Origin: a virus
IMG/VR virus record: IMGVR_UViG_3300024581_002488
Coordinates: 3,064-67,063 of that record
Direction: 5' to 3' (one strand)
DNA: 64,000 bases
Shown: piece after piece, positions 44,065 through 51,763 of the stretch
How the letters are laid out: each line of letters opens with the position of its first letter
How positions within the stretch are numbered: the first letter of the stretch is position 1
The notes under the pieces: model-generated
The model's database searches: none
The model's input: the letters and a program-made list of their open reading frames with translations, nothing else
Told to the model about the DNA's origin: nothing
Translations under genes and position numbers: made by a program

Positions 44065-44144
44065 ATTCAGGTCTCGTTGTTGTTTGAAGTTATTGTAATA
44101 ATAGACCGTATAGCTGCTGAAGTAATCAAACATTAAACCAATAA

Positions 44145-44180
44145 AAAAAGGCTCCCTTTTTCAAAGCATGGGAGCCTTTT
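44145..44180 (-). terminator. bidirectional rho-independent terminator
   Basis: AAAAGGCTCCC-loop-GGGAGCCTTTT with A/T tracts on both sides. Confidence 0.88.
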
Positions 44181-44455
44181 AATTACTTACACAATACGTA
44201 GAAACAATCATCGGTGGTTAATCGGATGGTTGTATGCTATTTACAGAGTTTGGGACTAGTATATAGCTGGTAGCCCTCTAGACTCTCGACTGGCGTAACT
44301 TCGGTCTCACGGTCGGTAAACGGTGATAGCAGTTACAATCTAGAGGGCTAGCAGCTATACACTCAGAGGAAAAATGCGGATAAAAACCCTAAGTGATAGC
44401 CGGAGAGTTAAGATTGGATGTGCGACCTACCAATCAACTAAACGTCTCTCGAACT
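44181..44455 (-). ncRNA. candidate structured RNA downstream of the holin-like gene
   Basis: 25-bp stem 44258-44282 / 44339-44363 (one mismatch, one GU on the - strand), nested GTAACT/AGTTAC, plus two further hairpins; no ORF. Confidence 0.6.
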
Positions 44456-44653
44456 CTAGCTCTTTTTATGGAGCTCAGGCTGAGACAGTAAACGGAACAC
44501 GATAAACACTAGACCCATAAGGCGGTAAACCCATTCCGATGCTGTTTGTGGAACTACATTATCAGCCATCCACCACTCAGCAATGGTGTAAATAAGAGCA
44601 ACCTGAACTGAGTGCATCTTAAGAGCTGATTTCCAGTTATCAATAAGTTTCAT
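44456..44653 (-). CDS. holin-like membrane protein
   Basis: MKLIDNWKSALKMHSVQ N-terminus and two hydrophobic helices ending RLLSQPEL, typical of a small phage holin family; AGGAG RBS. Confidence 0.75.
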   Translation of the reverse strand: MKLIDNWKSALKMHSVQVALIYTIAEWWMADNVVPQTASEWVYRLMGLVFIVFRLLSQPELHKKS

Positions 44654-44671: not shown

Positions 44672-44747
44672 TGGCGATGGATGCGGGACTCGAACCCGCG
44701 ACTCCTTGATTAACAGTCAAGCACTCTACCAACTGAGTTAATCCATC
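44672..44747 (-). tRNA. trnN: tRNA-Asn(GTT), CCA encoded
   Basis: 76 nt: GATGGAT/ATCCATC acceptor stem, CTTGA-CTGTTAA-TCAAG anticodon arm, GCGGG-TTCGAGT-CCCGC T arm, G73 then CCA. Confidence 0.97.
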
Positions 44748-44907
44748 AACTCGAAAGGCTCTCTGTCCGGAGATACTCCTAGACTTCTAATCTCTTACCC
44801 GTCAATATCGTGGCAGCGGGTAACTTCTCACATCCACGCTAGTTTTGATTAGAATTTGAAAACCTTTCGAGTTGCCCTCTGCAGGCTTAGGAGGTCAGAG
44901 GGCTACC
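44748..44907 (-). ncRNA. candidate structured RNA abutting the tRNA 5' end
   Basis: 11-bp closing stem 44748-44758 / 44863-44873, inner stems TTCTAATC/GATTAGAA, TTACCCG/CGGGTAA, GGAG/CTCC; upstream hairpin GCCCTCTG/CAGAGGGC. Confidence 0.6.
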
Positions 44908-44910
44908 CGG

Positions 44911-45309
44911 TTAAGCTGTAGGGTCTACATCTTTACCTTTACCACCTTTGTCTGCTTTAGCAGCTTTGGCTTTGTCCGCTTTTTCTTTTGCTTTAGCCGC
45001 TTTTTCAGCAGCTTTCTTTTCAGCATTGCGGGCTTTAGTGATGTCACGTGAAGTTTGCACCTTCGGATTTTCTTCACGGATTTTGTTACGGTACCAGTTG
45101 ATGGAAGCTTTCTTAGTCTTCGCATCAGGGAAGGCTTTAAGCACTTCAGCTAGCGCTTCATCGTTGTCTTTACCCGCTAGGATTGCTGCAGTAGCAACAC
45201 TTGCGATAGTAGGACCTTCAGAAGGCTGACGACCGCGTGGCTTTTTCACATCGTCTTTTGCTTTAGCAGCGTCTGCTTTACCTGCACCTTTACCTTTATT
45301 CTCAGCCAT
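44911..45309 (-). CDS. Lys/Ala-rich DNA-binding protein
   Basis: GAGGA RBS; KKPRGRQ; helical domain GKDNDEALAEVLKAFPDAKTKKASINWYRNKIR; histone-like KA tail. Confidence 0.8.
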   Translation of the reverse strand: MAENKGKGAGKADAAKAKDDVKKPRGRQPSEGPTIASVATAAILAGKDNDEALAEVLKAFPDAKTKKASINWYRNKIREENPKVQTSRDITKARNAEKKAAEKAAKAKEKADKAKAAKADKGGKGKDVDPTA

Positions 45310-45399
45310 AATCGAGTTCCTCTTGTTTGTTATCTGCATCATCGCTTAAGTTGAATTAAACTATAAACACTCTTAGTTGAGTTGTTAACCAGCAAATGA

Positions 45400-47459: not shown

Positions 47460-47494
47460 AGAATTTACTCTGTTATTAATGACAGTATAAATAT

Positions 47495-47537
47495 AAAACG
47501 ACCGCACGCATCAGTAAACAAGCGAACGGTCGTTTTA
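47495..47537 (-). promoter_or_regulatory. inverted repeat enclosing the GTTCGCTTGTTTAC promoter motif
   Basis: AAAACGACCG / CGGTCGTTTT arms; TTTACT-N17-TATATT on the - strand. Confidence 0.65.
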
Positions 47538-51654: not shown

Positions 51655-51692
51655 AATATAAACACTAACCGCTTAACCGTAAACAAGCGAAC
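51655..51692 (-). promoter_or_regulatory. promoter with GTTCGCTTGTTTAC motif
   Basis: 14-bp identity with 47514-47527; TTTACG-N17-TATATT. Confidence 0.7.
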
Positions 51693-51763
51693 AGCTTAAA
51701 ATGTAGATTTGTCATGATATAATTTCCAGCGTTCATATGTTCACATACTTAGGAGATTTGCAG

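What the first reader, a model, noticed from the sequence alone, without database searches (positions are those of the whole stretch)
44181..44455. About 280-nt fully folded non-coding RNA downstream of the holin-like gene
It contains a 25-bp stem (44258-44282 / 44339-44363) whose G-U wobble works on the - strand, with nested GTAACT/AGTTAC and TCAC/GTGA stems. There is a second hairpin (GAGAG/CTCTC, GATTGG/CCAATC at 44403-44450) and a third (about 44205-44234). Such a long ORF-free structured tract is exceptional in this densely coded genome. Inference: ncRNA, RNase III substrate or decoy for host RNA-sensing defences.
Basis: partly seen in the sequence, partly recalled or inferred. Interest (0 to 1): 0.66.

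Follow-up and report, generated by a model that had tools for sequence, protein, structure and literature searches.

The report
RNase III-excised phage small RNA
An uncultured phage and twelve related phage loci carry a conserved folded RNA inside a stem shaped like a site where the host enzyme RNase III cuts, so an undescribed small RNA of about 84 bases is probably cut out of a longer transcript; what it acts on is still open.

Summary
The structure is real and lies on the - (coding) strand, but the unit is not a 275-nt RNA. The conserved part is a ~165-nt cassette (44236-44401): a helper hairpin next to a ~19-bp stem with one fixed mismatch. It sits before the operon terminator in all 13 readable loci of this phage clade (helicase 58-97% identical), with or without the holin-like gene or tRNAs. 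The stem covaries (98.6% of cells paired, 7 of 16 pairs doubly changed). Across 21 such stems in 10 genomes, including a second cassette upstream of tRNA-Asn, the published RNase III consensus fits at one register. Predicted cuts release an 84-nt rod (44351-44268) with invariant CYGUUUACC, GUG and UACG. There is no Rfam match. Cutting and expression are inferred, not shown. My best reading is an RNase III-excised small RNA acting in trans through its invariant loop. Leads for the target are antisense pairing to 23S rRNA 1896-1904 and likeness to 4.5S RNA; neither beats chance after correction (p about 0.1). The scan has noted stem-closed RNA cassettes in other phages, but not this cargo.

The parts
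44268..44351 (-). Predicted mature small RNA B (84 nt; 81-100 nt in relatives), an irregular rod ending in CCA after predicted RNase III cuts at 44352/44351 and 44268/44267
   Evidence: cut sites inferred from the consensus quoted in PMC4357697
44339..44358 (-). 5' arm of the conserved processing stem (7 bp, one mismatch at 44351, then 12-13 bp)
44263..44282 (-). 3' arm of the conserved processing stem
44315..44323 (-). Invariant motif CYGUUUACC; in single-sequence folds G-U pairs with a downstream A-C and UUACC(N) is the apical loop (9 of 10 sequences)
44294..44310 (-). Second conserved block: GUG (invariant), CCGAAG (9 of 10), UACG (invariant) followed by two pyrimidines
44360..44395 (-). 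Helper hairpin abutting the stem; arms covary, loop is freely replaced; its 3' arm supplies the outer half of the RNase III consensus
44396..44401 (-). 5' strand of a short closing helix (GGCUAU) that pairs with 44236-44240 and makes a three-way junction; seen in several but not all relatives
44200..44235 (-).
44403..44450 (-).
44141..44180 (-). Intrinsic terminator (11-bp hairpin and U tract) ending the operon; a similar hairpin follows the RNA in every relative read
   Evidence: the pattern scan missed it because its loop exceeds 8 nt
44748..44885 (-). Cassette A: same helper hairpin plus long stem, predicted 118-nt product, cargo not conserved across the clade; ends at tRNA +1
44672..44747 (-). 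tRNA-Asn(GUU)
44456..44653 (-). 65-aa holin-like gene (PHROG 1356, Pfam DUF7940); accessory at this spot
44911..45309 (-). Lys/Ala-rich protein gene, always directly upstream of the RNA cluster
45360..45388 (-). Candidate sigma70 promoter (TTAACA-17-TATAGT) for the transcript that carries the cassettes
   Evidence: consensus match only; about 2.4 such sites are expected by chance in the region

Best explanation
The tract is an RNA-excision cassette near the 3' end of a phage transcript (Lys-rich gene, cassette A, tRNA, holin-like gene, cassette B, terminator). Step 1, shown by comparison: the coding-strand RNA folds into a helper hairpin next to a ~19-bp stem. Step 2, inferred, about 0.75: host RNase III reads the stem, with the helper hairpin stacked on it as the second half-site, and makes a staggered double cut at the fixed mismatch. 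This releases an 81-100-nt stem-closed RNA and separates the neighbours. Step 3, inferred, about 0.55 overall: the released RNA is a stable trans-acting small RNA whose working surface is the invariant CYGUUUACC loop region. Step 4, speculative: among mechanisms I favour base-pairing to a conserved host RNA (about 0.3). The best single candidate is 23S rRNA 1896-1904 at the H68/H69 junction (about 0.15), where binding would disturb 50S maturation or subunit joining.
For: Present at the same place in 13 of 13 readable clade loci and absent from four cultured outgroups. The stem has 98.6% of cells paired, 7 of 16 pairs with double changes, 0 of 500 shuffles as high, slid controls 33-51%, and U-G pairs only in coding orientation. 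The RNase III consensus (PMC4357697) gives a mean of 4.2 mismatches at the predicted register against 7.3-12.6 at registers slid by 1-6 nt, over 21 stems in 10 genomes; the implied cuts leave a 2-nt 3' overhang. The inner helix of 12-13 bp meets the 11-bp minimum of PMC1540722. Cassette A has the same stem but variable cargo, while cargo B keeps invariant bases that the stem does not explain. The 11-nt seed has 23S 1896-1904 as its best site in E. coli rRNA for 10 of 10 homologues (mean -16.0 against -11.6 kcal/mol for the next site), and its variable base is C or U opposite a G. Precedents: DicF (10.1101/2023.04.14.536235) and PAK_P3 sRNA2 (PMC4933390).
Against: No transcription or cleavage data. 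The RNase III consensus is described as weak, and the sequences are related, so the 21 stems are not independent. The host is unknown; E. coli and Vibrio RNAs were stand-ins. The 9-mer target occurs in 6% of shuffled rRNA sets, and the best match among host stable RNAs is reached by about 10% of shuffled sets. The apparent second pairing of the UACG block with H69 does not rank among the top sites. In single folds G-U of the seed is paired. The inner fold differs between single-sequence and alignment predictions. The invariant GUG and UACG are not explained by the antisense model.
Confidence: 0.55

Rival explanations
1. Protein-binding decoy: the excised RNA titrates a host nuclease, toxin or RNA-sensing defence protein that recognises a UAC/UUACC-bearing loop or a CCA-ended helix.
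For: Both invariant blocks contain UAC; the rod is stable and likely abundant; it lies among tRNAs in four lineages.
Against: No partner identified. CCA ends also occur on unrelated cargo in cassette A and look like a by-product of the cut-site sequence.
Confidence: 0.2
2. Degenerate derivative or mimic of the host 4.5S (SRP) RNA.
For: The model aligns end to end with E. coli ffs at 11.9 bits. L032 matches 14 of 15 nt around GUUUACC, with CCG-AAG and GCAGA at similar spacing. It is the top same-sense match among host stable RNAs.
Against: The Ffh-binding symmetric loop and GNRA apex are absent. RF00169 gives no hit even at E 10. An HMM of gammaproteobacterial 4.5S RNAs does not find it. GUUUACC is in 1 of 21 unselected 4.5S RNAs. 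The 4.5S-like fold is 0.5-10 kcal/mol worse. Corrected p is about 0.1.
Confidence: 0.1
3. Minimal 6S-like promoter mimic, or an embedded DNA promoter: the 3' strand reads UUUACC, 15-17 nt, UACGYY, like the phage's own conserved promoters (GCTTG-TTTACN-17-TATATT).
For: Spacing is 15-17 nt in all 10; the phage promoter box is conserved in all relatives; shortened 6S RNAs still work (abstract of PMC8876501).
Against: RF00013 has no hit. There is no central bubble, and the would-be -11 A is paired in about half of the folds. The -7 T is lost in four homologues and two have 15-nt spacers, which argues against a DNA promoter. These positions matter little for 6S binding.
Confidence: 0.1
4. Only a processing and stability signal, like the T7 RNase III sites: it cuts and hairpin-caps the upstream mRNA and tRNA precursors, and the excised piece has no job.
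For: Cassette A fits this reading: same stem, freely changing cargo, flush with tRNA +1.
Against: Cargo B keeps about 20 near-invariant bases inside the stem down to 58% helicase identity and is kept where no tRNA or gene lies between A and B.
Confidence: 0.1
5. Antisense regulator of the phage's own mRNA, like P1 C4 or P4 CI RNA.
For: A 6-nt loop on a weak, bulged upper stem is typical of antisense hairpins (own knowledge).
Against: No sense-strand GGUAAACGG in the 75-kb genome outside the locus, and no fully matching target in the relatives' 7-13-kb loci.
Confidence: 0.05

Closest known systems
RNase III processing stems of phage T7 early mRNA and of rRNA precursors / 23S intervening sequences
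   Same: Long stem with a small mismatch, sequence fitting the RNase III consensus at one register, placed between units of a polycistronic transcript.
   Different: Here the stem is short on its outer side and is completed by an adjacent helper hairpin; it encloses a cargo with invariant bases and recurs two or three times per genome with swappable cargo.
DicF of the Qin prophage (10.1101/2023.04.14.536235)
   Same: Phage-derived small RNA released from a polycistronic mRNA with RNase III, acting in trans on host RNA.
   Different: DicF gets one RNase III cut and ends at a terminator with a U tail. This RNA would be cut on both sides, closed by a 12-13-bp stem, and has no sequence likeness or known target.
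PAK_P3 sRNA1/sRNA2 and T4 band C/D RNAs (PMC4933390)
   Same: About 100-nt RNAs of virulent phages in or near tRNA clusters, with a short stretch conserved among relatives and proposed to act on host translation.
   Different: I did not compare sequences directly, though the phage collection gave no DNA match; no RNase III cassette is described for them in the passages read.
Bacterial small SRP RNA (4.5S, RF00169)
   Same: Rod of similar size, terminal helix with a CCA-like 3' end, and a GCUACNCUGUUUACC stretch like enterobacterial ffs.
   Different: No symmetric Ffh loop, no GNRA apex, matched stretch in a different structural place, and similarity not significant after correction.
6S RNA (RF00013)
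   Same: Irregular rod; -35-like and -10-like words at promoter spacing on the 3' strand.
   Different: Half the size, no central bubble, no model hit.

Membership tests
RNase III substrate | Helix of at least 11 bp beside the cut | tested here: met
   12-13 bp inner helix; 16-18 of 19 positions paired in 21 stems
RNase III substrate | Sequence fits the weak consensus with cuts staggered by 2 nt | tested here: met
   4.2 mismatches at the register against 7.3-12.6 slid
RNase III substrate | Cleavage in vitro or rnc-dependent ends in vivo | not testable with these tools
   needs experiment
Trans-acting antisense sRNA | Conserved short seed, accessible in the fold | tested here: inconclusive
   CYGUUUACC invariant; UACC unpaired at 0.74-1.0 in 8 of 9 folds, but G-U paired
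Trans-acting antisense sRNA | A target with complementarity beyond chance | tested here: inconclusive
   23S 1896-1904 is top for 10 of 10, but chance level is 6-10%; host mRNAs not scanned
Trans-acting antisense sRNA | Expressed as a discrete RNA | not testable with these tools
Bacterial small SRP RNA (RF00169) | Symmetric loop CAGG/AGCA and GNRA tetraloop that bind Ffh | tested here: not met
Bacterial small SRP RNA (RF00169) | Scores with the family model | tested here: not met
6S RNA (RF00013) | About 180-nt rod with a large central bubble; model hit | tested here: not met
6S RNA (RF00013) | Binds sigma70 holoenzyme and templates pRNA | not testable with these tools
   needs experiment
tRNA, tmRNA, small ribozymes and other Rfam families | Hit by ARAGORN or by any of 4227 Rfam models | tested here: not met

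The most novel reading that the evidence does not exclude
A lytic phage makes, by RNase III excision, a small RNA that base-pairs with the conserved 23S rRNA segment 1896-1904 next to helix 69, and so acts directly on host ribosome assembly or subunit joining.
Probability: 0.15. Interest if true: 0.85.

Novelty: new variant of a known kind. Interest (0 to 1): 0.55.

Why it matters
Few small RNAs of virulent phages have a known origin or function (PMC4933390). This gives an undescribed family with a predicted precursor, exact predicted ends, invariant bases to mutate and a natural control (cassette A: same stem, variable cargo), all testable on a plasmid in laboratory E. coli. The helper-hairpin-plus-stem design suggests a reusable way for phages to release RNAs from one transcript. 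If the RNA targets 23S rRNA, or mimics 4.5S RNA, it would be a new route by which phages take over translation.

Tried and rejected
Rfam at gathering and E-value thresholds on the window and nine relatives: only tRNAs and terminator-type chance hits. blastn of the tract against cultured phages: one chance hit. Pattern scans of viral and metagenome contigs gave only L009; the other hits did not score with the model or sat in unrelated coding sequence. The model found nothing in 70 loci of more distant phages or in 41 gammaproteobacterial genomes searched, and its one weak hit in five further genomes was not 4.5S. 4.5S homology: not significant. A two-site antisense model (seed plus H69): a pattern built after seeing the match looked very rare (1 in 20000 shuffles), but the unbiased duplex scan did not rank H69, so I discarded it as overfitted. 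RNase P L15 (GGUAAAC) as target: the next bases are UC, so the invariant C-Y would not pair. Cis target in the phage genome: none. Host search by DNA against 401 Enterobacterales genomes gave only tRNA and low-complexity matches; the host stays unknown. GC skew shows no turn at the locus. Literature searches for phage 4.5S, 6S or H69-antisense RNAs found nothing relevant; the library lacks most subscription journals. Two short E. coli sequences recalled from memory were used only to fetch the real records.

Full report
Setting. The window is part of a 75,257-nt IMG/VR virus record. Its DNA polymerase is at most 49% identical to cultured Mesyanzhinovviridae- and RDJL-like phages. On the - strand the order is RNase H, helicase, a Lys/Ala-rich gene, a structured tract A, tRNA-Asn, a 65-aa holin-like gene (PHROG 1356, DUF7940), the finding (tract B), an intrinsic terminator, and two Myb-like regulator genes.

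The observation. The - strand folds better than chance (z -4.0, 0 of 200 shuffles) and better than the + strand (z -2.8). It ranks 7th of 1704 GC-corrected 150-nt folds in the window: strong, but not unique. No Rfam family matches.

Relatives. A stem pattern found one close relative, L009. Helicase and Lys-rich protein searches gave a clade with 58-89% helicase identity, whose loci I fetched. Every locus that reaches far enough has the RNA: the window, L009, L025/026, L029, L030, L031, L032, L033, L034, L036/037, L323, L325 and L326. L323, L325 and L326 were not in the training set and score 88-92 bits, though they are close kin of L032/L036. The RNA is always the last element before a terminator-like hairpin. 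The holin-like gene and tRNAs come and go; L032, L034 and L325 have neither. PaMx74, RDJL Phi 1, Donnerlittchen and AXL-1 have no such cluster after the homologous gene, and the model finds nothing in 70 distant phage loci.

What is conserved. The outer stem has 16 counted pairs with 98.6% of cells paired, 7 pairs with changes on both sides, and 0 of 500 shuffles as high; slid controls fall to 33-51%. U-G pairs occur in coding orientation, which points to RNA from the - strand. One mismatch sits at a fixed place, 7 bp in. Directly 5' of the stem is a helper hairpin whose arms covary and whose loop is freely replaced. Inside the stem the invariant bases are C-Y-GUUUACC, GUG and UACG, with CCGAAG in 9 of 10. 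Single folds give a rod whose apex is G-U[UUACC(N)]A-C. Alignment folds do not agree on the interior, so the inner structure is not settled.

Processing. The weak RNase III consensus quoted in PMC4357697 fits the stem. Tract A has the same design, helper hairpin plus long stem, in all relatives, and L033 has three such cassettes. Over 21 stems in 10 genomes the consensus gives a mean of 4.2 mismatches at one register and 7.3-12.6 when slid. The two implied cuts leave a 2-nt 3' overhang, and the inner helix exceeds the 11-bp minimum of PMC1540722. The helper hairpin supplies the outer half of the consensus, which suggests coaxial stacking (inference). In the window the cuts release 44351-44268, 84 nt, z -5.3. 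The CCA end also appears on unrelated A cargo, so I treat it as a by-product of the site. The sequences are related and the consensus is weak; cleavage is inferred at about 0.75. This also accounts for the complementarity between tracts A and B noted elsewhere in the scan (e1-5359207): both carry the same near-palindromic site (I20), so long-range pairing need not be invoked.

Function. Cargo A changes freely, which fits a plain processing signal. Cargo B does not, so it probably has a partner. Four leads were tested. (1) Antisense to 23S rRNA: the 11-nt seed has 1896-1904 as its best site in E. coli rRNA for all 10 homologues, and its variable base is C or U opposite G. But the 9-mer occurs in 6% of shuffled rRNA, and a second pairing to H69 failed an unbiased scan. 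(2) 4.5S RNA: colinear likeness to E. coli ffs, but the Ffh loop is missing, a 4.5S HMM misses the RNA, and GUUUACC is in 1 of 21 unselected 4.5S RNAs. Among 540 windows of host stable RNAs these two are the top matches (286 and 281), yet shuffled sets reach them in 6 of 60 trials. (3) Promoter mimic: UUUACC and UACGYY are 15-17 nt apart, like the phage's conserved TTTACN-17-TATATT promoters, but there is no 6S-type bubble and the -7 T is lost in four homologues. (4) Cis antisense: no target found. None is established. I commit to an excised trans-acting RNA (0.55), most likely pairing with a conserved host RNA (0.3), with 23S as the best single candidate (0.15).

Comparison. It works like T7-type RNase III sites for processing, and like DicF or PAK_P3 sRNA2 as a phage small RNA. 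It is not a member of the 4.5S, 6S, tRNA, tmRNA or any Rfam family. Earlier notes of this scan describe stem-closed RNA cassettes in other phages; I did not test those, and a sequence look-up found this cargo only in this genome.

Verdict. A real, conserved, undescribed phage RNA with a well-supported processing signal and an open target. New variant of a known kind; interest 0.55. Limits: no expression data (read laying closed), host unknown, about ten distinct sequences.

Noticed in passing
window 44748-44885 (-): Cassette A, a second RNase III-type stem with a predicted 118-nt cargo ending at tRNA +1. The cargo is shared with L025 and L029 only, but a GUCUAGGAGUAUCUCC hairpin recurs in L030 and, altered, in L031.
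   Followed up: partly
window 47490-47530 and 51655-51695 (-); same places in L025, L030-L034, L036, L323, L325, L326: Conserved promoter box GCTTGTTTAC followed at fixed distance by TATATT-like words. Before the RNase H gene it lies in the loop of a covarying inverted repeat.
   Followed up: partly
L031 8865-8932 (+): tRNA-like element with a CUA (amber) anticodon loop and a shortened D arm; Rfam tRNA 26.8 bits, below cut-off, missed by ARAGORN.
   Followed up: partly
L031 8436-8512 (+): tRNA called Ile with anticodon AAU, rare in bacteria.
   Followed up: no
L033 8075-8365 (+): Two extra processing cassettes with unrelated 72- and 93-nt cargo, so three per genome.
   Followed up: partly
L025 7130-7205 versus window 44672-44747: Both are tRNA-Asn(GUU) at the same spot in close relatives, but with very different sequences, which suggests tRNA gene replacement.
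   Followed up: no
L036 8070-8110, L323 5465-5500, L326 5488-5525: Cargo A of this subgroup keeps CCUACCGCG..CCGGGGAUUAAA; a UACCGC word also occurs in loops near the cassettes in L009, L025 and L030.
   Followed up: no
L025 7760-11497, L030 8832-9916, L033 8939-12299, L326 6073-8770: The slot after the terminator is a variable site that takes a 133-aa gene (weak Gp80 hit in two loci) plus a 226-1170-aa gene in some relatives, in place of the Myb-like regulators.
   Followed up: no
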